Source: a virus (Duplodnaviria; Heunggongvirae; Uroviricota; Caudoviricetes). Taken from it: 13,716 nucleotides of DNA. The stretch covers positions 1 to 13,716 of IMG/VR virus record IMGVR_UViG_2737471853_000004; one strand, given 5' to 3'. The notes beneath the pieces were generated by a model that was given only the letters and a program-made list of their open reading frames with translations, had not been told where the DNA came from and ran no database searches. Numbering within the stretch: position 1 is the first letter of the stretch; each line of letters begins with the position of its first letter. Below are positions 1 through 13,716 of the stretch, one piece after another. The translations under genes and the position numbers were made by a program.

Positions 1-69
1 AATAAAACCGGCATAGGCCACGCTATTTCATGGCTCTGGTTTTCTCTATTAAGGAGCTTCTGTAATGGC

Positions 70-588
70 TTATTCGATCAGCAATTCAGGCTGCGTTACC
101 TGCATGATGTGCTCATGCTCCACAGCCAGAACACGTTTCTCTTTCTTCCGCTCGTTCATCAACCGGCTGCCGATCGTGCCCTTCAACTTTGACCGCGTTT
201 CTTTGATGGCGTAGCGGTGCTGCATTTCTTCTCCCATCGCCATGCGTCGGCTTAGCTGCTCGGCCATCCAGTTAAAGGCATTGATGTAGCACTCCTTTAC
301 TGCGGCAGCTGTTTTTCCAGTGAACCCCATCACGAGCATCATGCATCCATCGCGTGTGATGTTATACATGGGCTGAACATCGCCATTTTTATCAATGAAA
401 TCAATGGGCGCAAAATTGCGCAGGGTGAAGTCGTCGGAGCATTTCAGGTTACGTATGGCGCGCAAAACGTCTTTGTGTCGCTTGCCAAAGTAGTCAGCCA
501 CCTTGAGTGATGTCGTGATTATCTTGTTGTCGAGGGTCGTGACCATTTCGCGGAAGTCGAAGGCCGGAATAACTGACGGATTATTCAT
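70..588 (-). CDS. rha: Rha-family phage regulatory protein (antirepressor-like)
   Basis: Translation contains TTSLKVADYFGKRHKDVLRAI and LVMGFTGKTAAAVKECYINAFN, which fit the Phage_pRha family as I recall it. Start trimmed to the Met of MNNPSVIPAF (ATG at 586-588); the longer ORF-track extension runs through the upstream terminator hairpin. Confidence 0.6.
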   Translation of the reverse strand: MNNPSVIPAFDFREMVTTLDNKIITTSLKVADYFGKRHKDVLRAIRNLKCSDDFTLRNFAPIDFIDKNGDVQPMYNITRDGCMMLVMGFTGKTAAAVKECYINAFNWMAEQLSRRMAMGEEMQHRYAIKETRSKLKGTIGSRLMNERKKEKRVLAVEHEHIMQVTQPELLIE

Positions 589-730
589 AGCGTCTTTACC
601 TTTTAGAAAGTGAGCCTGTCTCACAGAAAAGCCGCCCGAGAGAGGTCGCCACCTATAACGGCATTTCTCAGGCTCGCTTACTGAAAGGCTCTCGTTAATA
701 TGCGCGTGAGATGCGCTGTGAAATTCAGAT

Positions 731-755
731 ATAAAAAAGCCCCGCATCGCGAGGC
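731..755 (-). terminator. Candidate intrinsic terminator downstream of Rz
   Basis: On the minus strand, GCCUCGC-GAU-GCGGGGC (7 bp stem with one G-U, 3-nt loop) is followed by UUUUUUAUAU. The loop is tight, so confidence is moderate. Confidence 0.4.
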
Positions 756-787
756 TCATTAAATGGACTTTGTGATTTGCAAAAAAA

Positions 788-1225
788 TTATTTCAGGCAT
801 TGCGTCCTGATGTACTCCTGCAGGTAGTTAACCTGCGCGGTTATCCTGTCGATTCCACTTCGGAGACGGTAATAATTGAGTTCAGCATCTGCTGTAAGTC
901 CTGGGCTTTCTCCATCGCCCATGCCGCTGGCTCCGGTCGTTGACTTTGCACAGGTGGCGGCGACTTGCAGGCGCTTACGACCAGCAGAAACATCAGCACG
1001 GAGACTTTCGATAGTCGCGTTAGCATCAGCAAGCTCCTTTGTGTATCTGGCGTCGAGTTCTGCTACATCACGTTGACGCTTCTGCATGTCAGCGATGATG
1101 GATGTGGCTTTATCACGCTGATCTTTGTAGGCGATGGCGTTATCACGGTAATGATTAACAGCCCATGACAGACAGACGATGATGCAGATAACCAGAGCGG
1201 AGATAATCGCGGTGACTCTGCTCAT
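788..1225 (-). CDS. Rz: Rz-type i-spanin
   Basis: N-terminus [31 protein letters not shown] matches lambda Rz as I recall it; the remainder is diverged. Overlaps the R stop and sits directly after the endolysin, as in lambda. Confidence 0.85.
841..1032 (-). CDS. Rz1: Rz1-type o-spanin embedded in Rz in an alternative frame
   Basis: ORF lies wholly inside Rz. It has a lipoprotein-like signal with lipobox VSAC followed by a Pro-rich stretch ([13 protein letters not shown]), the typical architecture of embedded Rz1 genes. Confidence 0.7.
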
Positions 1226-1698
1226 ACCTCAATCTCTCTGACCGTTCCGCCTGCTTCTTTGAATTTTGCAATCAGGCTGTCAGCCTTATGCTCGAACTGA
1301 CCATAACCAGCACCCGGCAGTGAAGCCCAGATATTGCTGCAACGGTCGATTGCCTGACGGATATCACCACGATCAATCATCGGCAAAGCGCCACGCTCCT
1401 TAATCTGCTGCAATGCCACAGCATCCTGGCTTTTCGGAGAGAAGTCTTTCAGGCCAAGCTGCTTACGGTAGGCATCCCACCAACGGGAAAGAAGCTGGTA
1501 GCGTCCGGCGGCTGTTGATTTGAGTTTGGGGTTTAGCGTGACAAGTTTGCGAGGGTGATCGGAGTAATCAGTGAATAGCTCTCCTCCTACAATGACGTCA
1601 TAACCATGATTTCTGGTTTTCTGACGTCCGTTATCAGTTCCCTCTGACCACGCCAGCATATCGAGGAACGCCTTACGTTGATTATTGATTTCCACCAT
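1222..1698 (-). CDS. R: Endolysin R (lambda-type lytic transglycosylase)
   Basis: The 158-aa translation [39 protein letters not shown]... is recognisable as lambda R essentially along its whole length. Confidence 0.9.
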
Positions 1699-2005
1699 CT
1701 TCTACTCCGGCTTTTTTAGCAGCGAAGCGTTTGATAAGCGAACCAATCGAGTCAGTACCGATGTAGCCGATGAACACGCTCGTTATATAAGCGAGATTGC
1801 TACTTAGTCCGGCGAAGTCGAGAAGGTCACGAATGAACCAGGCGATAATGGCGCACATCGTTGCGTCGATTACTGTTTTTGTAAACGCACCGCCATTATA
1901 TCTGCCGCGAAGGTACGCCATTGCAAACGCAAGGATTGCCCCGATGCCTTGTTCCTTTGCCGCGAGAATGGCGGCTAACAGGTCATGTTTTTCTGGCATC
2001 TTCAT
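1682..2005 (-). CDS. S: Holin S (S107/S105 dual-start)
   Basis: 107 aa beginning [20 protein letters not shown] with the dual-start Met-Lys-Met motif. The upstream CCCCTTATTGGGG hairpin (sdi-like) and RBS match the lambda S leader. Confidence 0.9.
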
Positions 2006-2247
2006 GTCTTAGCCCCAATAAGGGGATTTGCTCTATTTAATTAGGAATAAGGTCGATTACTGATAGAACAAATCCAGGCTACTGTGTTTAGTAATCAGAT
2101 TTGTTCGTGACCGATATGCACGGGCAAAACGGCAGGAGGTTGTTAGCGCGACCTCTTGCCACCCGCTTTCACGAAGGTCATGTGTAGAAGTCCGCAGCGT
2201 AACTATCACTGATGAATTCAGGATAGCCAGTGGCTACGGCTCAGTTA

Positions 2248-2323
2248 TGGTGCTGTTTAACGGACTTGAACCGCTACCCATTCGCTTACAAGGCGACCGC
2301 TCTACCATTGGAGCTAAAACAGC
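2248..2323 (-). tRNA. tRNA-like gene, anticodon UGU by hand folding (Thr)
   Basis: The minus strand reads GCTGTTT-TA-GCTC-CAATGGTA-GAGC-G-GTCGC-CTTGTAA-GCGAA-TGGGT-AGCGG-TTCAAGT-CCGTT-AAACAGC-A-CCA. It has a 7-bp acceptor stem, a canonical D arm, a GGTTCAAGTCC T arm and an encoded CCA. The anticodon stem has one mismatch, so the isotype call is tentative. Confidence 0.55.
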
Positions 2324-2328
2324 ATGTT

Positions 2329-2403
2329 TGGCGGGACAGCGTGGACTCGAACCACGATAAGAAGGTTAACAGCCTTCCGTAATCACCTTTATACGACTGA
2401 CCC
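2329..2403 (-). tRNA. tRNA-like gene, anticodon GUU by hand folding (Asn); possibly degenerate
   Basis: The minus strand reads GGGTCAG-TC-GTAT...TTAC-G-GAAGG-CTGTTAA-CCTTC-TTAT-CGTGG-TTCGAGT-CCACG-CTGTCCC-G-CCA. T arm and anticodon arm are perfect and CCA is encoded. The acceptor stem has one T-T mismatch and the D stem is only 3 bp. Confidence 0.5.
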
Positions 2404-2466
2404 AAATAAAAAAAGCCACCGTTGCAACTTAAGAGTCACTAACGGCAGCTTACCTTCTAATTATGG

Positions 2467-2985
2467 CTAAATGGATAATTGCATGTCAAGGCTTTTAACA
2501 GCAACATGCTTAACTTTCTCAACACGTTTACGCATTTTGAAAGCATTTTGCATTGGCTGGTACAAAACAAATAACGATGCTTTCAGGATGTCGTCAATTT
2601 CGTTTCTACAGGTTGCCAGTGAAGGTTTTCTCCATCCCTCGCCACCACGTCCACACATCTTGCGTGGCTTTGCAGTCGCGTGATAGTAGGATGCAATTGC
2701 TCGCTTAGATGAACCATGAGCGTAGTAGCTGAGGAGGATGCCAAAGGCTTTTTTGTCAATGTACATGACGGAATCGACGACCTGAGAAATCAACATTCCA
2801 TCATCATCATTGCACATTGGCCTTGTCATAACTCTTCCCGGCTCTACGCTCTCCATGAACTTCGCTATTACGCTGCTCATGCGCTTTTCCAGACGACCTG
2901 AATAAACCCATGCGCCCCACAGTTCAAGCCAGCCATTCAGCCACTCGTGCTGCTCTTTGGTGAGGTTTAGTTCTCTTATGCCCAC
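2467..2985 (-). CDS. Late-gene antiterminator Q, non-lambda Q family
   Basis: 172 aa at the Q position between the nin region and the lysis cassette. Contains LELWGAWV and [13 protein letters not shown], which resemble the WGAW and Cys/Asp-rich motifs I recall from 933W-type Q proteins. It is not lambda Q. Confidence 0.65.
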
Positions 2986-3647
2986 GCGCCTTCTCCCTGT
3001 ACCTGAATCAATGTGAGGTTTCCGCAGAACACTGCGCCGGTATCGATATACATCTGGTTGGCAAACTTGAGTGGTTTCACTGCTGGCGTATGACCAAAGA
3101 TGAACGTGTCAGCTCCTTTGATTTCTTTCACGATCCCGTCTTGTGAGTTGCTGATTCGTTCGCGGTTCCAGATTACCTGCTGATGATCAACTGGCTTTCC
3201 AAATTCGTATTCGTCACAAGGATAATCGGCGTGGCAGATGACATATTTTTTACCTTCGCTCACCAGTTCGATGATTAACGGAAGTTCATCTGCTTTATGG
3301 GCAAGAGCTTTAGCCAGAATTTCTTTGTCGTAATCGAGATTAAAGAACCAGCCACCGCCATTAAACAGCCAGTGATTGACGTTTCCACGCTCTGATAAGC
3401 CATCAATCATCATTTGCTCATGGTTTCCACGTACAGCTCGGAACCAGGGGAATGTGATTAATTCCAGACATTCGACGTTCTCTGTACCGCGATCGACCAA
3501 ATCGCCAACCGAGATAAGCAGGTCTTTTTTGGTGTCGAATCCCATCGTCTCCAGTTTTTTCATCAGGTTCGTGTAGCATCCGTGCAGATCGCCAACTACC
3601 CAAATATTTCGGTATTTGCTGCCATCAATTTTTTCGTAATAGCGCAT
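2976..3647 (-). CDS. ninI: Ser/Thr protein phosphatase (lambda PP, NinI)
   Basis: [29 protein letters not shown]...GNHE carries the metallophosphatase GDxHG/GDxxDRG/GNHE motifs and is near-identical to lambda PP as I recall it. Start trimmed to MRYYEK (ATG 3645-3647). Confidence 0.9.
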
Positions 3648-3831
3648 CTCTTTCACTCCATCCGCGATGAACCATGAGAACGTCGTTGACGATGGCGTGC
3701 ATTTTCCCGTCTTTATCATCAACGTATTTTCTGACCGTACCGCGACTACATTTCAGTCTGCGTGCTACTTCTGTCTGGTTTCCGTATGCTTCAACGAGCA
3801 TGTCTGGAATGGTTTTTACTGAGAACGTCAT
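3625..3831 (-). CDS. ninH: NinH (small HTH protein)
   Basis: 68 aa [37 protein letters not shown]... matches lambda NinH. Its ATG overlaps the ninG stop as ATGA. Confidence 0.85.
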
Positions 3832-4439
3832 GCGGCCTCACTTCTGCTATTTCGCAGGTCTTTGAGTTTCTGTTGGTACTCTGCCTTGATCGCCTTGCAC
3901 TCTTCGATAGTCCAGCGATGGCGGCTATGGTTTGATTCGATTTCGTCTACTGCTTCCTGCCCTATGCGATTAATCAGTTCGACGCGATACGGAACGAGAT
4001 TTCCGCTTTTATGCTGGTTGCACACCACGCATTGCTTGTGAATATTGCGTTCATCAAATCGGAGTTGAGGTGCCGCAGCAGTTGTCCGGTAATGTCCGGC
4101 ATCCCACTGAGCAGACGTGAGCGTTCCGCACGAGATACATGGTAAGTCGCGGTCTCTTTCTCTGATGAAGGCGTTTACGGCTTGCTGGGCTTGTTTAATC
4201 CAGTAACTGCGGGGCTTTAAGGCGAGTTTTCGAATCTTCAGTTTATCTTTCTGTTTCTGCTCCTCTCGTCGTCGTTTCTTCTCTGCTGCTTTTTCCGCTT
4301 TTTCGCGTTCTTTGCTTCGTCGTTCGAGTGCTATCTTTGTTCCACACTCTGGAGAGCACCACCACTGATTAGCGAATGCAGGGTGAAACCATTCCCGACA
4401 TTCATCGTTTTTACATCGTCTTCGCGCTGGTTTAGCCAT
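3828..4439 (-). CDS. ninG: NinG / Rap recombination endonuclease
   Basis: 203 aa [33 protein letters not shown]... with Cys-rich clusters, matching lambda NinG (Rap). Confidence 0.9.
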
Positions 4440-4608
4440 CGTCTTCTTCCTCGTACATTGAGCTATTCGGATCGCTCATCAGTTCTGCGAAGCAGTGCTC
4501 ACACACGTGAACTTCCAGCACATGCAGCTTCTGACCGCAGTTAGCGCACGTTAAAGCCCGCTCGACGCTTTCTTTCTGGTATTGGAGGGATTGGGATGGG
4601 CTAAGCAT
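4432..4608 (-). CDS. ninF: NinF
   Basis: Not in the ORF track (58 aa). Hand translation of the minus strand gives [58 protein letters not shown], matching lambda NinF. Its stop overlaps the ninG ATG (ATGGCTAA). Confidence 0.8.
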
Positions 4609-4960
4609 TATTGGCGTCCTGCATCATGAGAAAGACAATCATGGCGGCGCGGAGGGAATTTTCATGTATAGCTCGCTTAGATTTACAGTCGGCCACACCA
4701 CGTGCACCCCACTCGTCTTCATCGAGATTGATAATGCTAATCCTGTACTTCTCAATAATCGGCCATGAGGCGCTAGGATCATTGCAGTAGTCAGGTAAAG
4801 GGTTTAATGGCTCAAAAGTTGTATCAGCATTTCCGTAATACCATTTGTTGGTGTTATTCCCTGATGTTTCCGGTTTACATGCCCAAAGGCCTTTAAAAAT
4901 TATGTCTCCTACCATTCTGTTAATTTCAAAATCACTTAACTGTGAATAATCCATTGTCAT
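4601..4960 (-). CDS. Hypothetical protein between ninE and ninF (NinX-like position)
   Basis: ORF occupies the slot where P22-like nin regions carry ninX; lambda has no gene here. Start is ambiguous: the ATG at 4958-4960 overlaps the ninE stop as ATGA, while the ATG at 4952-4954 has GAGGAA about 7 nt upstream. No catalytic motif recognised. Confidence 0.5.
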
Positions 4961-5133
4961 TTCCTCGCACGATGTCTTAGCCACCGGATATCCCACAGGT
5001 GAGCCGTGTAGTTGAAGGTTTTTACGTCAGATTCTTTTGGGATTGGCTTGCGTTTATTTCTGGAGCGTTTCGTTGGAAGGTATTTGCAGTTTTCGCAGAT
5101 GATGTCGGTGATACTTCGTCGCTGTCGTCTCAT
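4957..5133 (-). CDS. ninE: NinE
   Basis: [52 protein letters not shown]... matches lambda NinE. Start trimmed to MRRQRR (ATG 5131-5133), overlapping the methylase stop. Confidence 0.8.
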
Positions 5134-5657
5134 GCCGTCCTCCTGACGCCCTGCCCGATCGCCATCAATGCCGCTTTGGATACGGTAGTAAACATCCGTC
5201 GAGGACTGATGAACGGTCGCCAAATCAGCAGCATTGAGCCTTTGCTGTTTCCCTTCTTCTCCAGCCCCGTCGATGGTTCGATAAAATTAATCCGTCCATC
5301 AGTGATGATGCGAACTTCGTCAACGCTCTCCAGAGCCTTGCTGAACCATCCGACTGACATATCCTCTGGCACAAGCATCACTACCGTCTGTCGCTGTTGT
5401 ATGCACTGCTCAGCGGCTTTTTCTACCCACGGCCTGATATTGCTGTACGGTGGGTTATTCCAGATTGCACCGTGGCTTACCCACTCAGAATTGAGCGCGT
5501 CGTCGGCCTCAGTTAACCAGTGAGCGCACAGAGCATTTTTGTCGCTCGCTGCCGAATCCAGCCAGAATCCAAACTCAATATCCAGTGCATCAAAAAGCCA
5601 AAGCGGCGTTTGCCAGCAGTCCTTGTCGTGTGCTGGCGTATTTGATTTGATAGTCAT
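5130..5657 (-). CDS. Phage DNA N6-adenine methyltransferase (Dam-like, orphan)
   Basis: Contains the NPPY catalytic motif (IWNNPPYS) and a [12 protein letters not shown]-terminal region typical of the phage N6-adenine methylase family. Start trimmed to MTIKSN (ATG 5655-5657), overlapping the ninB stop. It sits where lambda has ninC/ninD. Confidence 0.8.
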
Positions 5658-6094
5658 GCAGCCCGATCTCCCCATCGCGCTTTCCATTCGAGAGCCAGTC
5701 GCGCTTCGTCTGACCACTTAACGCCACGCTCTGTACCGAATGCCTGTATAAGCTCTAATAGCTCCGCAAATTCGCTTACACGCATCCTGCTGGTTGACTG
5801 GCCTATTACCACAAAGCCATTCCCGGCAAGGTTAGGAACAACGTCCTGCTGCTTTAATGCAGCTGTAAAAACGCACTTCCAGCTTTCTGCATCCAGCCAG
5901 CGACCATGCCATTCAACCTGACGAGAGACGTCACCAAGGCAAGCCCAAAGCTTTCGATTCTGGTCTAAGCTGCGGTTGCGTTCCTGAATGGTTACTACGA
6001 TTGGTTTGGTTGGGTCTGGAAGGATTTGCTGTACTGCGTGAATAGCATTTTGCTGAAGTTCTGGAGATCGAATTTCAAAGGTCAGTTTTTTCAT
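5654..6094 (-). CDS. ninB: NinB (Orf recombination mediator)
   Basis: MKKLTFEIRSPELQQNAIHAVQQILPDPTKPIVVTIQERNRSLDQNRKLWACLGDVSRQ... is near-identical to lambda NinB. Start trimmed to MKKLTF (ATG 6092-6094) with GAGGGAAG upstream; the ORF-track extension begins at a TTG. Confidence 0.9.
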   Translation of the reverse strand: MKKLTFEIRSPELQQNAIHAVQQILPDPTKPIVVTIQERNRSLDQNRKLWACLGDVSRQVEWHGRWLDAESWKCVFTAALKQQDVVPNLAGNGFVVIGQSTSRMRVSEFAELLELIQAFGTERGVKWSDEARLALEWKARWGDRAA

Positions 6095-6110
6095 GACTTC
6101 CCTCTCCCCC

Positions 6111-6142
6111 AAATAAAAAGGCCTGCGATTACCAGCAGGCCT
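6111..6142 (-). terminator. Intrinsic terminator between ren and ninB (tR2-like)
   Basis: On the minus strand, AGGCCUGC-ugguaauc-GCAGGCCU (perfect 8-bp GC-rich stem, 8-nt loop) is followed by UUUUAUUU. The position matches lambda tR2. Confidence 0.6.
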
Positions 6143-6167
6143 GTTATTAGCTCAGTGATGTAGATAG

Positions 6168-6458
6168 TCATTGCCTTACCTCCATAAGCGCCCTATTAAT
6201 AAACGCCGTCATTGGATTTGCACATCCCCACCCCGTACCATCTTGATTTCTTTTAATTGGCTCCTTCTTCACTTTGCGTTTTGCATAAATAACCGTCTTC
6301 CACTTACGCTCAACAACACTCAAATGTCCTTGTTTCACCATATGCCTTGCTGCTTGAGCGATTCTGTTATTTGGTATTCCGGTGATCAGTGCTAATTCAT
6401 GTGGGGAGAATTGTTCATGAGTTTTCAGATATTCCAGGATGATTTCTTTTCCAGTCAC
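6168..6458 (-). CDS. ren: Ren-like protein
   Basis: 96 aa starting MTGKEIILEYLKTHEQFSPHELALITG, similar in its N-terminus, length and position to lambda Ren. The start codon appears to be GTG (6456-6458) with AGGAG 6 nt upstream, overlapping the DnaC-like stop. Confidence 0.65.
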   Translation of the reverse strand: MTGKEIILEYLKTHEQFSPHELALITGIPNNRIAQAARHMVKQGHLSVVERKWKTVIYAKRKVKKEPIKRNQDGTGWGCANPMTAFINRALMEVRQ

Positions 6459-7300
6459 GATCTGCTCCTGTAACTATCCCATGTAAACGCAAGAGTGCAC
6501 CCGCCGCCATCATTCATCCTGTCAATAACACGCTCACCAATGAATGCAGACAGTTCATCTTTGCTCTGGTTGCTAATCAGGATTGTTGGCTTCATGCGCT
6601 CGTAGCGGGTGTTGATGATTTCGAACATGATCATCTTTTCCGCCTCGCTTCCAAACTGCACACCAACCTCATCGATAATTAGCAGGTCAGGTTTAGTGAA
6701 CTGTCGGATCACTTCATCCTCTGTGCGGGTGGAGTTTTTCGACCATGTTGATTTATATTCTCTGGCAATTTTCAGCGCCGTTGTGAAAATAGCTGAGCTT
6801 TGATGTTCCGTAATTGCGTGCCGGGCGATAGCCAGTGCAAGATGATTCTTTCCAGTACCAGGCTTTCCACACATAACCAGCCCACCGCCTTTCTGTAACC
6901 TCTCAGGCCATTTGCTGGCGTATGCCTGACACACCCTGAGCACTCTCTTTGCATCGTCGTTGACTGGCTCGTAGTTCTGTAGTGTGCAACCCTTGAATCG
7001 TTCAGGAATATCAAGATTATTCAACAGAAACTCGACATTGCGCTTACGTGATTCCTCGTCGATTTTAATCTTCTCTGCCTGTAGCCGAATAAGCTCATCT
7101 CTCATGCATTCCGGGCATTCGCTAGGTCTTGAGGCAAACTTAATTGGCCCAGTCGAGTAACGGTTACGCTGCTCAAACTCACCATGTTTTTCACAGATGC
7201 CAGTGCCAATTTCTACAGATGTATGCTCGATAGCAATTGGCGGAGAACTCAATTCTGCAAGTTTTTTCTCCAGTTGGGAGATCTTTTCATCCAGCGTCAT
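6455..7300 (-). CDS. DnaC-like replicative helicase loader (AAA+ ATPase)
   Basis: Walker A GKPGTGKNHLA, Walker B LLIIDEVG, and an N-terminal Cys-rich region. Start trimmed to MTLDEK (ATG 7298-7300) with AGGAG 5 nt upstream. It occupies the lambda P position. Confidence 0.85.
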   Translation of the reverse strand: MTLDEKISQLEKKLAELSSPPIAIEHTSVEIGTGICEKHGEFEQRNRYSTGPIKFASRPSECPECMRDELIRLQAEKIKIDEESRKRNVEFLLNNLDIPERFKGCTLQNYEPVNDDAKRVLRVCQAYASKWPERLQKGGGLVMCGKPGTGKNHLALAIARHAITEHQSSAIFTTALKIAREYKSTWSKNSTRTEDEVIRQFTKPDLLIIDEVGVQFGSEAEKMIMFEIINTRYERMKPTILISNQSKDELSAFIGERVIDRMNDGGGCTLAFTWDSYRSRS

Positions 7301-7302
7301 GT

Positions 7303-8145
7303 TCACTCCTGCGCCCATGAAGGCATTTCAGTTTGTCCGTAATCTTTGGTGGCAAAGTTTTCCTGCATAGCTCGATGCTGCGGCCTCGGTTGAGATTTCC
7401 CCTTTGGAGTCTTGGGCTCAAAAATCCCCTGCCAACCACTGGCGATGCTCTGGTTTATAATTTCTTCAGGTGTATATCCCTTCTCCAGACTTCTGCTTAG
7501 AACGTTGATAGCCTGAGTGACGCTTTGCTTAGACTTGATCGACTTACCTATCTCCTTACGATAGGTAACCCACGACAACCATGTTTCTGCTGATAACCAA
7601 TCAGGCAACTCTGTTTCTAGCGGGTCGAACTTCTGAGAAACTTTTTTGGGGGATATAGGGGGTTTATTAATATTTTCTTTTGTCTTTAAAGAATGTCTTT
7701 TGTGTGTCTCTAACTTCGAGACATTGAGTGTCTCTAATTTGGAGACATTTTTTGTCTCTAACTTCGAGACAAAGTTGCTAACTTGGAGACACTTGCTGAA
7801 TTGCCACGCAGATACCTCCCTGTTTACACCGATTTGATTTCCATCCATAAACAGGCAATTCATTGAAATCAGTTCTTTTTTAGCCTTGTTAACATTCTGC
7901 CTTGATAGTCCTGTTAACTGAGCAATTTGCTCATCGGCTATTCGATCTGTTTTCTTATTGAATCCATATGTTTTCCGGACGTAGGCCAGCATAACTTTCA
8001 ACTGGCGAGCGGTTAAATCGGCACTTGCGATAGCTTCCAGCAGCTCGTTAGCGAATCTGGTGTAACCATCATCGATATCAGCCACTCTTCGCTCCTGTTC
8101 AACAGGTTCACTCTTCGGCAGGTAAAATACTTCAGCCAGGCTCAT
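7303..8145 (-). CDS. O: Replication initiator O-like protein (origin-binding N-domain, non-lambda C-domain)
   Basis: The N-terminal region DDGYTRFANELLEAIASADLTARQLKVMLAYVRKTYGFNKKTDRI parallels the lambda O N-domain. The central VSKLET repeats are encoded by the iterons. Start chosen at MSLAEV (ATG 8143-8145) with GGAGG 6 nt upstream. Confidence 0.8.
   Translation of the reverse strand: MSLAEVFYLPKSEPVEQERRVADIDDGYTRFANELLEAIASADLTARQLKVMLAYVRKTYGFNKKTDRIADEQIAQLTGLSRQNVNKAKKELISMNCLFMDGNQIGVNREVSAWQFSKCLQVSNFVSKLETKNVSKLETLNVSKLETHKRHSLKTKENINKPPISPKKVSQKFDPLETELPDWLSAETWLSWVTYRKEIGKSIKSKQSVTQAINVLSRSLEKGYTPEEIINQSIASGWQGIFEPKTPKGKSQPRPQHRAMQENFATKDYGQTEMPSWAQE
7705..7791. repeat. Replication-origin iterons, four about 19-bp inverted-symmetry repeats at 24-bp spacing
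   Basis: TGTCTCTAACTTCGAGACA at 7705-7723, TGTCTCTAATTTGGAGACA at 7729-7747, TGTCTCTAACTTCGAGACA at 7753-7771, and TTGCTAACTTGGAGACA at 7775-7791. An AT-rich tract at 7640-7700 flanks them on the side downstream in the O reading direction, the same arrangement as lambda ori inside O. Confidence 0.75.
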
Positions 8146-8776
8146 TTCCAACCTCCGCATCAAAGCATTGGGCTTCAAGAGACTTAACCATCACCACACT
8201 GCCATCTGTATTAATAACTATCGATGAGTTATATTTGCTTATCAGTTGCTTCGCGTAATCAATTCCGGCGCGAATAAGGAAATTTTTCACCGCAGGAAGA
8301 TGACCAACTACACTACCCAGACCTTGCTCTATAAGCTCCTCATTAAGATCAAGCTCATTTTCATGGCGAAAAGAAATGAATGAGTCGTAAATTGCGTATT
8401 CTGCCGTCTCGCCATTTCTTTCAGGGCCAACCAGCGCCCTTATTTCATTTAGAGATTCATAAAGATCATTATCTTCAAGCTTGAAAAACTCTCGATTATC
8501 ACTAAGCCTCTCTTTTGCAAAGGCTTTATGAATAAGTTTTTCATCTGATGCGGGATTATTTGAATGAAAGGCTGCTATCACCTTAAATGGCTTAGGAACG
8601 CCAGTAGAGGCTGAAATTTCTTTAGCCCTAACTTCTGGTGAATGCTTAGTCATCCCAATCTTATAAATTCCCGGCATGCACTCATTCGAAAGCACATAAA
8701 CAAAGCCATTTGATTTAAAATCATCTGGCACCTTCATGCTCTTCAGAACCTGGAATTTGTCATTTTCGTATGTCAT
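8132..8776 (-). CDS. T5orf172 / GIY-YIG-like domain protein, function unknown
   Basis: GFVYVLSNECMPGIYKIGMTKHSPEVRAKEI...KLIHKAFAKERLSDNREFFK fits the T5orf172 motif pattern as I recall it. AGGAG lies 5 nt upstream of the ATG. It is inserted between cII and O, where lambda has no gene, and its last 14 nt overlap the O start. Confidence 0.5.
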   Translation of the reverse strand: MTYENDKFQVLKSMKVPDDFKSNGFVYVLSNECMPGIYKIGMTKHSPEVRAKEISASTGVPKPFKVIAAFHSNNPASDEKLIHKAFAKERLSDNREFFKLEDNDLYESLNEIRALVGPERNGETAEYAIYDSFISFRHENELDLNEELIEQGLGSVVGHLPAVKNFLIRAGIDYAKQLISKYNSSIVINTDGSVVMVKSLEAQCFDAEVGNEPG

Positions 8777-8810
8777 AATTACTCCTGTGGATTGATCCAG
8801 TCTTTCTACA

Positions 8811-9089
8811 TCAGGCCTCGAAGAATTCGCCGTTCTTCGGGGCTTTTTCTTTTGTCAGCATTCTGGCTACTTTCTTAGCCAGTTCAGCCAACTCCTCGTC
8901 TTCAACACCCCATTCAAGAACAGCCAGAAGCATGGCCATCTTTGGGATAAAGCTGTCTTTCCATCGCGAAATTTGCGATTCATTGATCCCTAATGCATCA
9001 GCAACCTTTCGCTGACCACGTACAGCAATTCGATTCAGGATGTTGCTTGTAATTGCATTCGCTTTCTTGCGAGTACTTGTAAGTTGCAT
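8811..9089 (-). CDS. cII: CII-like transcriptional activator
   Basis: MQLTSTRKKANAITSNILNRIAVRGQRKVADALGINESQISRWKDSFIPKMAMLLAVLEWGV parallels lambda CII (SQISRWK and MLLAVLEWGV conserved), though the protein is diverged. The upstream leader TTGTTATCTAAGGAAATACTTACATATG is the lambda cII leader. Start trimmed to this ATG (9087-9089). Confidence 0.8.
   Translation of the reverse strand: MQLTSTRKKANAITSNILNRIAVRGQRKVADALGINESQISRWKDSFIPKMAMLLAVLEWGVEDEELAELAKKVARMLTKEKAPKNGEFFEA
8814..8853 (+). terminator. Intrinsic terminator antisense to the cII 3' end (oop-like)
   Basis: Plus strand CCUCGAAGAA-uucgccg-UUCUUCGGGG (10-bp stem with one G-U, 7-nt loop) followed by CUUUUUCUUUU. It lies antisense to the cII 3' end, as the oop terminator does in lambda. 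Confidence 0.6.
9043..9056 (+). promoter_or_regulatory. Candidate CII-binding site TTGC-N6-TTGC (PRE-like)
   Basis: TTGCTTGTAATTGC on the plus strand, inside the cII N-terminal coding region and oriented toward cro and cI. The tetrad repeat is perfect, but the -10 is not clear and the spacing to the cII ATG differs from lambda. Confidence 0.4.
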
Positions 9090-9168
9090 ATGTAAGTATT
9101 TCCTTAGATAACAATTGATTGAATGTATGCAAATAAATGCATACACCATAGGTGTGGTTTAATTTGAT

Positions 9169-9200
9169 GCCCTTTTTCAGGGCTGGGATGTGTAAGAGCG
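9169..9200 (-). promoter_or_regulatory. nutR (boxA and boxB)
   Basis: The minus strand reads CGCTCTTACACAT (boxA, 9188-9200) and GCCCTGAAAAAGGGC (boxB, 9169-9183), between cro and cII. Confidence 0.8.
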
Positions 9201-9207
9201 GGGTTAT

Positions 9208-9417
<210 letters not shown>

Positions 9418-9432
9418 TTAGTACATGCAACT

Positions 9433-9502
9433 ATTATCACCGCTAGAGGTAAAATAGTCAACACGCACGGTGTTAGATATTTATCCCTTGCGGTGATAGA
9501 TT
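9433..9502. promoter_or_regulatory. Right operator OR1-OR2-OR3 with divergent promoters PR and PRM
   Basis: OR1 at 9435-9451 (TATCACCGCTAGAGGTA), OR2 at 9459-9475 (CAACACGCACGGTGTTA), OR3 at 9482-9498 (TATCCCTTGCGGTGATA). PR -35 TTGACT and -10 GATAAT are on the minus strand; PRM -10 TAGATT is at 9497-9502 ahead of the cI ATG at 9509. Confidence 0.9.
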
Positions 9503-9505
9503 TAA

Positions 9506-10222
<717 letters not shown>

Positions 10223-10253
10223 TTGTTTTATTTTTCACGTAATAGGATGATTT

Positions 10254-11015
10254 ATGACACAGTTTCAACTTGCATTAATCGCTAGAGAAGTTGATGGAGA
10301 AGTCATCCATCTTCGCACCAAAGACGGATACATCAATGCCACCGCGATGTGCAAGTCTGCGGGGAAGCTACTTGCTGACTATACACGACTAAAAACAACA
10401 CAAGATTTTTTTGATGAATTATCACGCGATATGGGGATTCCCATATCGGAGTTAATTCAATCATTTAAAGGCGGAAGAGCAGAGAATCAAGGGACTTGGG
10501 TTCATCCAGACATCGCAATTAATTTAGCTCAGTGGCTATCTCCAAAATTTGCAGTGCAAGTATCGAGATGGGTGCGTGAGTGGATGTCAGGTGAAAGAGC
10601 GCCTGCCGAACTCCCTATCCACCTTAAGCGGTATATGACAAACCGAGGCAGAGTTCCTCATACGCACTTTTCTATGCTTAATGAACTGACGTTTAACTTG
10701 GTTGCGCCACTTGAACAGGCCGGATATACGCTGCCAGAAAAAATGGTCCCTGATATTTCAGAGGGTAGGGTTTTCTCGCAATGGCTCCGTGACAACCGGG
10801 GGGTTGAGCCGAAGACATTCCCAACATATAACCATGAGTACCCAGATGGCCGGACATTCCCGGTACGTCTATACCCAAACGAATATCTTGCAGATTTCAA
10901 ACAACACTTCAACGAAGTGTGGCTGCCTCAGTACGCTCCTAAATATTTTGCTGAACGAGACCAAAGGGCATTGACGTTGATTGAGAAAATCATGCTACCT
11001 GACCTTGATTCCTAA
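10254..11015 (+). CDS. KilA-N domain protein in the rexAB position (candidate BstA-like abortive-infection protein)
   Basis: The N-terminal roughly 110 aa (GEVIHLRTKDGYINATAMCKSAGK...GTWVHPDIAINLAQWLSPKFAVQVSRWV) fit the KilA-N fold pattern; the C-terminal roughly 140 aa are unassigned. The gene starts 31 nt after the cI stop on the same strand and is followed by a terminator. Confidence 0.6.
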   Translation: MTQFQLALIAREVDGEVIHLRTKDGYINATAMCKSAGKLLADYTRLKTTQDFFDELSRDMGIPISELIQSFKGGRAENQGTWVHPDIAINLAQWLSPKFAVQVSRWVREWMSGERAPAELPIHLKRYMTNRGRVPHTHFSMLNELTFNLVAPLEQAGYTLPEKMVPDISEGRVFSQWLRDNRGVEPKTFPTYNHEYPDGRTFPVRLYPNEYLADFKQHFNEVWLPQYAPKYFAERDQRALTLIEKIMLPDLDS

Positions 11016-11021
11016 ATGTTA

Positions 11022-11046
11022 TTCCCGGCCAAGAGCCGGGTTTTCT
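11022..11046 (+). terminator. Intrinsic terminator ending the cI / KilA-N transcription unit
   Basis: CCCGGC-caaga-GCCGGG (6-bp GC stem, 5-nt loop) followed by TTTTCTTT, 7 nt after the stop codon. Confidence 0.6.
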
Positions 11047-11204
11047 TTGCCTCACGATCCCCCTCACCCAAGAACACATAACCAATTGTATTTATTTGAA
11101 AATTAATAGATACAACTCACTAAACATCGCAATTCAGATCTCTCGATCACCTTCCCAATCCACACAACCCTGCAAAGAATAAATCTATATAAAAACATAC
11201 AGAT

Positions 11205-11267
11205 AACCATCTGCGGTGATAAATTATCTCTGGCGGTGTTGACATAAATACCACTGGCGGTGATACT
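11205..11267 (+). promoter_or_regulatory. Left operator OL3-OL2-OL1 with promoter PL
   Basis: OL3 AACCATCTGCGGTGATA at 11205-11221, OL2 TATCTCTGGCGGTGTTG at 11225-11241, OL1 TACCACTGGCGGTGATA at 11249-11265. PL -35 TTGACA at 11239-11244 and -10 GATACT at 11262-11267, reading toward N. Confidence 0.9.
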
Positions 11268-11307
11268 AAGCACATCAGCAGGATGCACTGACCACCATTG
11301 AAGGTGA

Positions 11308-11338
11308 GGCTCTTAAAAATTTAGCCCTGAAGAAGGGC
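11308..11338 (+). promoter_or_regulatory. nutL (boxA-like and boxB)
   Basis: boxB GCCCTGAAGAAGGGC at 11324-11338 is preceded by GGCTCTTAAAAA (boxA-like, with a first-base difference from the CGCTCTTA consensus). Confidence 0.8.
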
Positions 11339-11448
11339 AGCATTCAAAGCAGAAAGCTTTGAGTAGCGCGAAATGCAGCTGCAAGACAGCAACCGTGGAG
11401 ATAAGCATCACGGCGCGTTACTCAAAGCTAACTGACAGGAGAATCCAG

Positions 11449-11775
11449 ATGGATGCACAAACACGCCGCCGCGAACGTCGCGCAGAGAAACAGGCTCAAT
11501 GGAAAGCAGCAAATCCCCTGTTGGTTGGGGTAAGCGCAAAACCAGTTAACCGCCCTATTCTCTCGCCGAATCGCAAACCGAAATCACGAGTAGAAAGCGC
11601 ACTGAATCCGATAGACCTTACGGTGCTGGCTGAATACCACGAACAGATTGAAAGCAACCTGCAACGTATTGAGCGCAAGAATCAGCGCACATGGTACAGC
11701 AAGCCACGCAGTGAAATGGGTGTGACTTGTGTTGGTCGCCAGAAAATGAAATTAGGCAGCAAACCACTTATTTGA
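11449..11775 (+). CDS. N: Antiterminator N
   Basis: MDAQTRRRERRAEKQAQWKAANPLLVGVSAKPVNRPIL..., with the arginine-rich boxB-binding motif; lambda N-like but diverged toward the C-terminus. Start trimmed to the ATG at 11449 with a GGAG RBS. Confidence 0.9.
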   Translation: MDAQTRRRERRAEKQAQWKAANPLLVGVSAKPVNRPILSPNRKPKSRVESALNPIDLTVLAEYHEQIESNLQRIERKNQRTWYSKPRSEMGVTCVGRQKMKLGSKPLI

Positions 11776-11785
11776 GGACTGATAC

Positions 11786-12028
11786 ATGAGAGTAAAAACT
11801 ATGGGCGCAAGCCCATTAAGTGGTCGTATTTTTCAAGGAACATTAAACACTGAAAAAGGAATGTGGGTGGGAAAGAAAGAAGATGTAACCGAACAGGCAG
11901 TTAAGGCAGTAGCTGAACACATGATGATAAAAGACCAGAAATATGCATACGAAACGAAGGATGGCAAATGGCTGATAATAAGTCATCAAATAGTTGATAA
12001 ATTACCAGAAGAGTTTATTGCTGATTAA
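11786..12028 (+). CDS. Hypothetical 80-aa protein immediately downstream of N
   Basis: GAGGA lies 7 nt upstream of the ATG, 11 nt after the N stop. No family recognised. It occupies the region where lambda carries ral and sieB. Confidence 0.5.
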   Translation: MRVKTMGASPLSGRIFQGTLNTEKGMWVGKKEDVTEQAVKAVAEHMMIKDQKYAYETKDGKWLIISHQIVDKLPEEFIAD

Positions 12029-12156
12029 AATTATTTTGGCATAAACAACAGAATAAACACTGCACTGTGTATTCATTCCAACGAGTGAATACACGGAGCA
12101 ATGTCGCTCGTAACTAAACAGGAGCCGACTTGTTCTGATTATTGGAAATCTTCTTT

Positions 12157-12183
12157 GCCCTCCAGTGTGAGGGCGATTTTTTA
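12157..12183 (+). terminator. Intrinsic terminator (tL2-like) upstream of ea10
   Basis: GCCCTC-cagtgt-GAGGGC (6-bp stem) followed by GATTTTTTAT. Confidence 0.55.
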
Positions 12184-12202
12184 TCTATGAGGATATGAAT
12201 AG

Positions 12203-12620: not shown

Positions 12621-12643
12621 TATGTATAAATAAGGAGCACACC

Positions 12644-12808
12644 ATGCAATATGCCATTGCAGGGTGGCCTGTTGCTGGCTGCCCTTCCGAATCTTTACTT
12701 GAACGAATCACCCGTAAATTACGTGACGGATGGAAACGCCTTATCGACATACTTAATCAGCCAGGAGTCCCAAAAAATGGATCAAACACTTATGGCTATC
12801 CAGACTAA
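12644..12808 (+). CDS. cIII: CIII (FtsH inhibitor)
   Basis: Not listed separately in the ORF track. Hand translation from the ATG at 12644 (AAGGAG RBS) gives [54 protein letters not shown], which is lambda CIII. Confidence 0.85.
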   Translation: MQYAIAGWPVAGCPSESLLERITRKLRDGWKRLIDILNQPGVPKNGSNTYGYPD

Positions 12809-12920
12809 ATTCACTATCGCCACTTTTATTGGCGATGAAAAGATGTTTCGTGAGGCCGTCGACGCTTATAAAAAATGGATATTAATACTGAAACTGAGAT
12901 CAAGCAAAAGCATTCACTAA
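12777..12920 (+). CDS. kil: Kil (host-killing, FtsZ inhibitor)
   Basis: [47 protein letters not shown] (47 aa) matches lambda Kil. It overlaps the cIII 3' end in another frame, as in lambda. Confidence 0.8.
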
Positions 12921-13027
12921 TCCCCTTTCCTGTTTTCCTAATCAGCCTGGCATTTCGCGGGCGATATTTTCACAGCCATTTTCAGGAGTTCAGCCATGAA
13001 CGCTTATTACATTCAGGATCGTCTTGA
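12875..13027 (+). other. Short ORF encoding a Gam-long N-terminal-like peptide, out of frame with gam
   Basis: Hand translation gives [50 protein letters not shown]. Its first roughly 35 aa resemble the N-terminal extension of lambda GamL, but the frame diverges just before the Gam ATG. Confidence 0.35.
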
Positions 13028-13292
13028 GGCTCAGAGCTGGGCGCGTCACTACCAGCAGATCGCCCGTGAAGAGAAAGAGGCAGAACTGGCAGACGACCTG
13101 GAAAAGGGTCTGCCCCAGCATTTGTTTGAATCGCTATGCATCGATCATTTGCAACGCCACGGGGTCAGCAAAAAAGCCATTACCCGTGCGTTCGATGACG
13201 ATGTTGAGTTTCAGGAGCGCATGGCAGAACACATCCGGTACATGGTTGAAACCATTGCTCACCACCAGGTTGATATTGATTCAGAGGTATAA
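12996..13292 (+). CDS. gam: Gam (RecBCD inhibitor), short GamS form
   Basis: 98 aa [56 protein letters not shown]... matches lambda GamS. GGAG RBS upstream. Confidence 0.9.
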
Positions 13293-13297
13293 AACGG

Positions 13298-13716
13298 ATG
13301 AGTACAGCACTCGCAACGCTGGCTGGGAAGCTGGCTGAACGTGTCGGCATGGATTCTGTCGACCCACAGGAACTGATCACCACTCTTCGCCAGACGGCAT
13401 TTAAAGGTGATGCCAGCGATGCGCAGTTCATCGCATTGTTGATCGTCGCCAACCAGTACGGCCTTAATCCGTGGACGAAAGAAATTTACGCCTTCCCTGA
13501 TAAGCAGAACGGCATCGTTCCGGTGGTGGGCGTTGATGGCTGGTCCCGCATCATCAATGAAAACCAGCAGTTTGATGGCATGGACTTTGAGCAGGACAAT
13601 GAATCCTGCACATGCCGGATTTACCGCAAGGACCGTAATCATCCGATCTGCGTTACCGAGTGGATGGATGAATGCCGCCGCGAACCATTCAAAACCCGCG
13701 AAGGCAGAGAAATCAC
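13298..13716 (+). CDS. bet: Bet (Red-beta single-strand annealing protein), 3'-truncated by window end
   Basis: Hand translation from the ATG at 13298 gives MSTALATLAGKLAERVGMDSVDPQELITTLRQTAFKGDASDAQFIALLIVANQYGLNPWTKEIYAFPDKQNG..., which is lambda Bet. The ORF runs off the end of the window. Confidence 0.9.
   Translation, partial: MSTALATLAGKLAERVGMDSVDPQELITTLRQTAFKGDASDAQFIALLIVANQYGLNPWTKEIYAFPDKQNGIVPVVGVDGWSRIINENQQFDGMDFEQDNESCTCRIYRKDRNHPICVTEWMDECRREPFKTREGREI

What the first reader, a model, noticed from the sequence alone, without database searches (positions are those of the whole stretch)
12875..13028. Apparent +1 frameshift separating the Gam-long N-terminal extension from the GamS core
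The sequence upstream of the Gam ATG encodes [34 protein letters not shown], which resembles the N-terminal extension of the 138-aa lambda GamL. In this window the frame then departs ([16 protein letters not shown], stop at 13025-13027) instead of running into MNAYYIQ. Relative to my recollection of lambda (AGC TAT TTC AGG AGT TCA GCC ATG) this window reads AGCCATTTTCAGGAGTTCAGCCATG, which is consistent with one extra T in a T-run. If real, only GamS (98 aa) is made. It could also be a sequencing error in a homopolymer, or a site of programmed slippage.
Basis: partly seen in the sequence, partly recalled or inferred. Interest (0 to 1): 0.45.

Follow-up and report, generated by a model that had tools for sequence, protein, structure and literature searches.

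The report
Common natural short-Gam allele
The one-base difference from phage lambda is real, but it is the commonest natural version of this gene junction in E. coli prophages: it only removes lambda's optional 40-residue leader and leaves the conserved 98-residue RecBCD inhibitor GamS intact, so the finding is ordinary.

Summary
Lambda reads AGC TAT TTC AGG. The window reads AGC CAT TTT CAG G: C for T at 12977 and a T-run of four instead of three (12979-12982). The ATG at 12875 therefore opens a 50-codon ORF that stops at 13025-13027 and does not run into gamS (12996-13292).

It is not a sequencing error. The 523-bp kil-gam stretch is 100% identical to an independent complete genome. The allele occurs at 2900 places in 2590 of 5426 complete E. 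coli genomes, against 973 places in 901 genomes for lambda's allele. It is tightly linked to the adjacent C/T difference.

GamS has its own AGGAG 7 nt upstream and fills the 98-position Pfam Gam model end to end. Gam homologues 71-76% identical start at the same Met, and none has an in-frame upstream ATG. The ATG at 12875 has no Shine-Dalgarno sequence.

Programmed slippage is unlikely. CAU_UUU_C is a known +1-prone tetranucleotide. However, it has no stimulator, and related T4 loci with a different upstream gene have no ATG in that frame.

Verdict: a known, majority allele that encodes only GamS. Lambda's 138-codon GamL ORF is the lineage-specific state. Low interest.

The parts
12777..12920 (+). 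kil CDS (47 aa). The ATG at 12875 lies inside it in another frame.
   Evidence: RefSeq annotation of the identical stretch in E. coli AL.H8 gives kil at window-equivalent 12777-12920. An AGGAG lies upstream.
12875..13027 (+). 50-codon ORF. It is the out-of-frame remnant, or counterpart, of lambda's GamL N-terminal extension. It overlaps the kil 3' end and the first 32 nt of gamS. It is probably not a functional gene.
   Evidence: ORF list. No Pfam or NCBIfam match. Anti-SD pairing upstream of its ATG is only -2.0 kcal/mol. Related T4 loci with a different upstream gene have no ATG in this frame. Public records name it 'host-nuclease inhibitor protein Gam', presumably by similarity to the GamL N-terminus.
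12921..12995 (+). 75-nt kil-gam spacer. It behaves as non-coding intercistronic DNA that travels with gam.
   Evidence: Haplotype alignment of 73 distinct upstream sequences shows homopolymer length polymorphism at two places: C4/C5/C6 just after the kil stop, and T3/T4 before the SD. Homology to prophages with a different upstream gene begins at about 12914.
12977..12982 (+). The variant site CATTTT (lambda TATTT): C12977 plus a T-run of four at 12979-12982. In the upstream frame it reads CAU_UUU_C.
   Evidence: Alignment with lambda and Stx phages. Allele-specific searches. Codon phasing.
12984..12988 (+). Shine-Dalgarno AGGAG of gamS, 7 nt before the ATG.
   Evidence: Sequence. Duplex with the 16S 3' end is -6.9 kcal/mol. 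An equivalent AGGAG or AGGAA lies at the same spacing in divergent homologues.
12996..13292 (+). gamS CDS: the 98-aa host-nuclease (RecBCD) inhibitor Gam.
   Evidence: Pfam PF06064 at 214.5 bits, covering 1-98 of 98 model positions. Four conservative differences from lambda residues 41-138. The solved structures 2UUZ and 5MBV cover essentially this part: 5MBV residues 41-138, 2UUZ residues 40-138. PGAP annotates exactly this CDS.
13298..13716 (+). Start of bet (Red beta), giving the synteny kil-gam-bet.
   Evidence: Annotation of the identical region in AL.H8.

Best explanation
This is the pL-operon kil-gam junction of a mosaic lambdoid prophage or phage. It carries the common 'T4' allele (CATTTT) of the 75-nt kil-gam spacer. 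In this allele the ATG inside kil (12875), which starts the 138-codon GamL ORF in lambda, is one base out of frame with gam and yields at most a 50-codon dead-end ORF.

Gam is made as the 98-aa GamS protein from its own AGGAG and ATG at 12996 (inferred from sequence signals and family conservation). It would inhibit RecBCD as lambda GamS does (inferred from about 96% identity to the structurally characterised protein).

The spacer is effectively non-coding, so homopolymer length changes in it are tolerated. Lambda's T3 state, which happens to fuse the kil-internal ATG in frame to gam, is the lineage-specific condition.
For: 1. The difference is real and reproducible. An independent complete genome is 100% identical over 523 bp.
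2. It is the majority allele. Allele-specific 50/49-mers find T4 at 2900 places in 2590 of 5426 complete E. coli genomes and T3 at 973 places in 901 genomes. Phage records split 90 to 90. Each allele is in at least 120 IMG/VR contigs.
3. Linkage with the adjacent SNP (C+T3 0 times, T+T4 2 times) excludes random homopolymer miscalls.
4. The family architecture is 98 aa. Pfam Gam has 98 positions. It matches window GamS 1-98 and lambda Gam 41-138. Homologues 71-76% identical, from Citrobacter, Pseudescherichia, Escherichia sp. ESNIH1 and an unnamed Enterobacteriaceae, start at the same Met behind AGGAG or AGGAA. None has an in-frame upstream ATG.
5. Start signals differ: -6.9 kcal/mol anti-SD pairing for the gamS ATG against -2.0 for the 12875 ATG.
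6. The GamL frame is also broken in other ways. A C-run deletion in lambda-like loci accounts for 8 loci, and T3 loci with a different upstream gene have no ATG.
7. PGAP annotates the 98-aa CDS in both T4 and T3 genomes.
8. GamS alone is the form crystallised and shown bound to RecBCD (PMC5218532).
Against: - There are no expression data for this phage. That GamS is the only product is inferred.
- GamL expressed from a plasmid is active, and in some K. pneumoniae strains slightly more effective than GamS (PMC5218532). The extension is therefore not necessarily inert where it exists.
- Among loci with an intact GamL ORF, the few polymorphisms in extension codons 17-40 are 4 synonymous to 3 non-synonymous. 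This is a borderline excess of synonymous changes (my binomial estimate is p about 0.05), so weak selection on GamL in the T3 lineage cannot be excluded.
- The spacer is well conserved and stays attached to gam across prophages with different upstream genes. It could have a regulatory role that I did not resolve.
Confidence: 0.88

Rival explanations
1. Low-level or programmed +1 ribosomal frameshifting at CAU_UUU_C (12977-12983). Ribosomes that start at 12875 slip tRNA-Phe from UUU to UUC and continue into gam, giving a 138-aa GamL-like protein alongside GamS.
For: [quoted passage not shown] 2016, PMC5009743). A +1 slip exactly there would give a 138-aa product that differs from lambda GamL in the extension only at T16I, P25L and Y35H.
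Against: - No SD-like stimulator lies upstream of the site: the sequence there is UUUUCACAGCCAU.
- The 0-frame A-site codon is CAG, which is neither a stop nor, to my knowledge, a rare codon (sequence).
- The ORF's own ATG has no SD (-2.0 kcal/mol).
- In all 65 T4 loci that carry a different upstream gene and were tabulated (classes seen at least twice), this frame has no ATG at all. The arrangement is therefore not conserved with the allele.
- Outgroups have no upstream ORF.
- Any product would be a small fraction of a weakly initiated ORF.
Confidence: 0.05
2. Sequencing or assembly error: a homopolymer miscall that added a T.
For: The difference lies in a T-run, which is a typical site of homopolymer errors.
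Against: - The run is only 4 nt long.
- The same allele is in 2590 complete genomes, 90 phage records and at least 120 IMG/VR contigs.
- It is tightly linked to the adjacent T/C SNP.
- The window is 100% identical to an independent genome over 523 bp.
Confidence: 0.01
3. The 50-aa ORF (12875-13027) is a genuine small protein of its own, for example a membrane peptide given its [13 protein letters not shown] stretch. In this reading it is not a leftover.
For: The exact 50-aa sequence is called on 32 contigs, and cluster relatives on up to 976 contigs. It contains a hydrophobic segment.
Against: - It has no SD and no family match.
- It exists only where kil happens to sit upstream of a T4 spacer. 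It is absent from T4 loci with the other upstream gene and from outgroups.
- Its last 16 residues are an out-of-frame read of the gamS start.
- Its database names are all 'host-nuclease inhibitor protein Gam', consistent with naming by similarity to GamL.
Confidence: 0.04
4. Transcriptional slippage on the T-run restores the GamL frame in a fraction of mRNAs.
For: A homopolymer is present at the site.
Against: The run is 4 T. From my own knowledge, productive RNA-polymerase slippage in E. coli needs runs of roughly 8-9 or more A or T. The longest run in 12861-13000 is A6 at 12870.
Confidence: 0.01

Closest known systems
Phage lambda gam (GamS, residues 41-138; PDB 2UUZ, 5MBV)
   Same: The protein is 98 aa with 4 conservative differences (L22I, M35L, A57V, S61A). 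It has the same AGGAG-N7-ATG start, the same kil-gam-bet synteny, and a full-length Pfam PF06064 match.
   Different: No difference of functional note was found. The differences lie only upstream of the start codon.
Phage lambda GamL (138-aa annotated ORF, NP_040618 / P03702)
   Same: The 12875 ATG and the first 34 codons are homologous, with 2 amino-acid differences (T16I, P25L).
   Different: The window has one extra T plus T-to-C at the junction, so the extension is out of frame and ends after 50 codons. No 138-aa product can be made by standard decoding.
gam of Stx-converting phages (AU5Stx1, BP-4795, 06-3462, Stx2-converting phage 86) and many E. coli prophages
   Same: They carry the identical CATTTT allele. 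gam is annotated as 98 aa. In some records the 50-aa fragment is additionally annotated as 'host-nuclease inhibitor protein'.
   Different: Only a few SNPs. The best phage record is 97.9% identical over the 523 bp.
UUU_Ynn +1 shift-prone sites (E. coli argI error site; Yersinia YopN-TyeA)
   Same: The tetranucleotide UUU_C is in the right phase for a +1 shift that would restore the long frame.
   Different: There is no evidence of use and no stimulators. The upstream ORF is weakly initiated and is not conserved among carriers of the allele.

Membership tests
Gam host-nuclease inhibitor (Pfam PF06064) | End-to-end match to the family profile above the curated cut-off | tested here: met
   214.5 bits against a cut-off of 25, with residues 1-98 on profile positions 1-98 of 98.
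Gam host-nuclease inhibitor (Pfam PF06064) | Red-operon synteny (kil or equivalent, then gam, bet, exo) in a lambdoid pL operon | tested here: met
   cIII, kil, gam, bet and exo are annotated in this order in the identical stretch of AL.H8. The cIII thermoregulator RNA lies at 12631-12689.
Gam host-nuclease inhibitor (Pfam PF06064) | Own translation start (SD plus ATG) at the conserved Met | tested here: met
   AGGAG at 12984-12988, a 7-nt spacer, -6.9 kcal/mol. Five divergent homologues have the same arrangement.
Gam host-nuclease inhibitor (Pfam PF06064) | Binds and inhibits RecBCD as a DNA-mimic dimer | not testable with these tools
   Inferred from 94 of 98 residues identical to lambda GamS, whose complex with RecBCD is solved (PMC5218532).
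Lambda-type GamL isoform (138 aa) | ATG 40 codons upstream, in frame with the GamS Met and with no intervening stop | tested here: not met
   The 12875 ATG is 121 nt upstream (3n+1). The gamS frame is closed 18 codons upstream and contains no ATG.
Programmed +1 ribosomal frameshift (prfB-like, or UUU_Y type) | P-site codon whose tRNA can re-pair in the +1 frame | tested here: met
   CAU_UUU_C: tRNA-Phe can re-pair UUU to UUC. UUU_Ynn is described as +1-prone.
Programmed +1 ribosomal frameshift (prfB-like, or UUU_Y type) | Slow 0-frame A-site codon (stop or rare codon) and/or an SD-like stimulator just upstream | tested here: not met
   The A-site codon is CAG, which is not a stop codon. Upstream the sequence is UUUUCACAGCCAU, with no purine-rich tract. 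The only AGGAG lies downstream of the site.
Programmed +1 ribosomal frameshift (prfB-like, or UUU_Y type) | Conservation of the two-ORF arrangement, with an initiable ORF1, among relatives that carry the shift site | tested here: not met
   All 65 T4 loci with the alternative upstream gene tabulated (classes seen at least twice) have no ATG in that frame. Outgroups have no upstream ORF. The ORF1 ATG lacks an SD.
Transcriptional slippage site | Long A or T homopolymer (about 8-9 nt or more; my own knowledge) | tested here: not met
   The T-run is 4 nt.
Sequencing artefact | Not reproducible in independent assemblies and not linked to neighbouring variants | tested here: not met
   2590 genomes carry it. 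It is linked to C12977.

The most novel reading that the evidence does not exclude
In prophages that combine kil with the T4 spacer, ribosomes that start at the kil-internal ATG occasionally shift +1 at CAU_UUU_C. This would yield a small amount of a 138-aa GamL-like protein (Y35H). The long isoform would then be kept at a much lower dose than in lambda, making a natural homopolymer 'dimmer' for the GamL:GamS ratio.
Probability: 0.04. Interest if true: 0.4.

Novelty: already known. Interest (0 to 1): 0.1.

Why it matters
The practical value is small.
- The 50-aa ORF annotated in many records as 'host-nuclease inhibitor protein Gam' is best treated as an annotation by-product.
- The 98-aa CDS is the gene.
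- The comparative data suggest that lambda's GamL is a lineage-specific in-frame fusion, not a conserved isoform. This is worth knowing for people who choose between GamL and GamS constructs in recombineering or RecBCD-inhibition work.

It does not open a new question.

Tried and rejected
- Codon-position and pN/pS test. I tested whether the extension is under coding selection. There were too few polymorphisms: 7 in extension codons 17-40. The gamS control was noisy because metagenomic and recombinant sequences were pooled. I treat the test as inconclusive.
- RNA folding. Folding the spacer plus the gamS start with the T3 and T4 versions gave the same structure and the same energy, -26.3 kcal/mol. 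There is no sign that the extra T changes accessibility of the ribosome-binding site.
- Rfam. Nothing matched in the kil-gam spacer.
- Lambda records. I looked for annotated terminators or other features in lambda records J02459 and NC_001416 across the spacer. Only CDS features are listed.
- Literature. I tried to read Murphy 1991, Court 2007 and the lambda ribosome-profiling paper for direct evidence on which Gam form is made in vivo. None is held in the library.
- Source of the window. The whole window is not contained in any single phage or E. coli record of the collections, with at most 71% coverage. It is a mosaic lambdoid element, and only its right end is identical to AL.H8.
- Contamination. 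Many genome-contig hits in unrelated taxa, such as Pseudomonas, Shewanella and Bacillota, are low-coverage contigs whose Gam match is 96% identical to the query. The one I inspected (L249, Shewanella) carries lambda's own sequence. They are probably lambda spike-in or contamination, and I did not use them as evolutionary evidence.

Full report
**What is there**

The window's right end is the pL-operon recombination region of a lambdoid element on the + strand. The features, in order, are:
- the cIII thermoregulator RNA (Rfam Lambda_thermo) at 12631-12689;
- cIII at 12644-12808;
- kil at 12777-12920;
- a 98-codon gam at 12996-13292;
- bet from 13298.

These coordinates follow the RefSeq annotation of E. 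coli AL.H8, which is 100% identical over 12778-13300.

An ATG at 12875, inside kil in another frame, opens a 50-codon ORF ending with TGA at 13025-13027. Its first 34 residues are the counterpart of the N-terminal extension of lambda's annotated 138-aa Gam.

**Check of the observation**

Alignment with lambda NC_001416 and with two Stx phages shows lambda ...CACAGC TA-TTT CAGGAG... and the window ...CACAGC CATTTT CAGGAG.... The T-run is one base longer (12979-12982), and the base two positions before it is C instead of T (12977).

The two starts are 121 nt apart, so the upstream ORF is out of frame with gamS. Lambda's record does annotate the 138-codon ORF.

**Not an error, and not rare**

- The best phage records fall into two length classes over the 523-bp query: 523 bp (Stx phages and others) and 522 bp (lambda and lambda-like).
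- I then used allele-specific 50-mer and 49-mer queries, built so that every 28-base megablast seed word spans the variant site.
  - The window's allele (T4) is at 2900 places in 2590 of 5426 complete E. coli genomes.
  - Lambda's allele (T3) is at 973 places in 901 genomes.
  - In deposited phage records the split is 90 to 90. I suspect lambda laboratory derivatives inflate the T3 count, but I did not check this.
- The recombinant combinations are nearly absent: C+T3 was found 0 times and T+T4 twice. The run length is therefore inherited together with the neighbouring SNP, which a miscall process would not produce.
- The two T+T4 contigs sit on different backgrounds, one lambda-like with kil and one with the other upstream gene. 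The run has therefore changed length more than once.

**What the family looks like**

- Pfam's Gam model has 98 positions. It aligns end to end with the window's GamS (214.5 bits) and with residues 41-138 of lambda Gam. The 50-aa ORF matches nothing.
- The solved structures cover essentially this 98-residue part: 5MBV residues 41-138, 2UUZ residues 40-138.
- A scan of one genome per species found five Gam homologues 71-76% identical, in Citrobacter (two), an unnamed Enterobacteriaceae, Escherichia sp. ESNIH1 and Pseudescherichia.
  - All five begin at the Met equivalent to GamS Met1, 7-8 nt behind AGGAG or AGGAA.
  - None has an in-frame ATG upstream. In three the frame is closed within 1-5 codons.
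- The conserved gene is therefore the 98-aa one.
- Among 218 related loci, the 138-codon ORF is intact only where a T3 spacer sits behind kil and the C-run after the kil stop has five C's (93 loci).
  - It is broken by a one-base C-run deletion in 8 lambda-like loci.
  - It has no ATG in 8 T3 loci with a different upstream gene.
  - It is absent from all T4 loci but one, an unrelated upstream read-through.
- The 75-nt spacer thus carries length polymorphism in two homopolymers. That is the behaviour of non-coding DNA.

**Start signals**

The gamS ATG has AGGAG 7 nt upstream, with -6.9 kcal/mol pairing to the 16S 3' end. This is the same as the AGGAG upstream of kil and similar to bet. The 12875 ATG follows GCTTATAAAAA and pairs at only -2.0 kcal/mol.

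PGAP annotates the 98-aa CDS both in a T4 genome and in a T3 genome where the long ORF is open.

**Slippage**

In the upstream frame the site reads CAU_UUU_CAG. UUU_Ynn is described as especially prone to +1 shifting in bacteria (Atkins et al. 2016, PMC5009743). A +1 shift exactly there would give a 138-aa product whose extension differs from lambda GamL only at T16I, P25L and Y35H.

Several points count against it:
- No SD-like element lies upstream of the site.
- The next 0-frame codon is CAG, which is neither a stop nor, to my knowledge, a rare codon.
- The ORF has a poor start.
- All 65 T4 loci tabulated that carry the alternative upstream gene ('phage encoded cell division inhibitor', ending at the same TAA) have no ATG in that frame.

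The arrangement is thus an accident of which gene sits upstream. I give use of the site about 5%. Transcriptional slippage on a 4-nt run is not credible, on my own knowledge of the run lengths required.

**What remains uncertain**

- I have no expression data.
- The literature I could read states that Gam exists as GamL and GamS, and that both are active when expressed from plasmids. GamL was sometimes slightly more effective than GamS in K. pneumoniae (PMC5218532). A review says only that the two forms are 'presumably' made from two starts (PMC11610958).
- The primary papers that might show which form lambda makes in vivo were not available.
- My polymorphism test of the extension was underpowered and, if anything, leaned slightly towards synonymous changes within the GamL-intact lineage (4 synonymous, 3 non-synonymous). 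I do not claim that GamL is meaningless in lambda. I claim only that it is not a conserved feature of the family and is absent here.

**Comparison and novelty**

The window's gam is an ordinary member of the Gam family and carries the allele typical of Stx-converting phages and of most E. coli prophages. The exact 50-aa ORF is already in public databases on 32 contigs, and close variants on up to 976 contigs. It is named 'host-nuclease inhibitor protein Gam', including in Stx2-converting phage 86. Phage 06-3462 annotates both pieces.

I found no paper that discusses the polymorphism, but the sequence state itself is commonplace. I file it as already known, with low interest.

Noticed in passing
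window 12945-12962 (+), T-rich tail to 12972: A terminator-like hairpin, GCCTG-GCATTTCG-CGGGC followed by GATATTTTCA, lies inside the kil-gam spacer. The fourth stem base (12948) takes all four bases among related loci, and lambda has C, which makes a perfect GC stem. It may correspond to one of lambda's tL2 termination sites. That is from memory and was not verified.
   Followed up: partly
window about 12914-12920, and L282 501-707: Many E. coli prophages carry a different 68-aa gene ('phage encoded cell division inhibitor protein') in place of kil. It ends at the same TAA, and homology to the window resumes exactly there. The kil stop codon therefore looks like a mosaic recombination joint, and the spacer always travels with gam.
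   Followed up: partly
window 12921-12925: A second homopolymer length polymorphism lies directly after the kil stop: TAA+CCCCC in lambda, TAA+TCCCC in the window, and C4 or C6 in other loci. The C4 variant independently breaks the GamL frame in otherwise lambda-like phages.
   Followed up: yes
window 12631-12689 (+): Full-length match to Rfam RF01804, the lambda cIII thermoregulator element (88.5 bits).
   Followed up: no
window 2248-2403 (-): Two adjacent tRNA genes, tRNA-Thr(TGT) and tRNA-Asn(GTT), lie in the late-regulatory part of the window.
   Followed up: no
window 1-12200: The window as a whole is a mosaic. No phage or complete E. coli genome in the collections covers more than 71% of it in one place. 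AL.H8 matches perfectly only at the right end and has different genes further left.
   Followed up: partly
loci L247-L260 (genome-contig hits): Gam-encoding contigs turn up in assemblies of unrelated organisms such as Pseudomonas, Shewanella, Neobacillus, Kitasatospora and Enterococcus. Several have coverage near 1x. The one inspected (L249, Shewanella) carries lambda's own sequence. They are probably lambda DNA contamination or spike-in in public assemblies.
   Followed up: no
L261, L262 (E. coli ECMA0423, Shigella flexneri SFBU1023): A Gam homologue 83% identical has a different N-terminus (..SAYPIFDRIEE..). It has no ATG at the usual position and only a GTG 9 codons upstream, overlapping an AGGAG. 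Its start is unclear.
   Followed up: no
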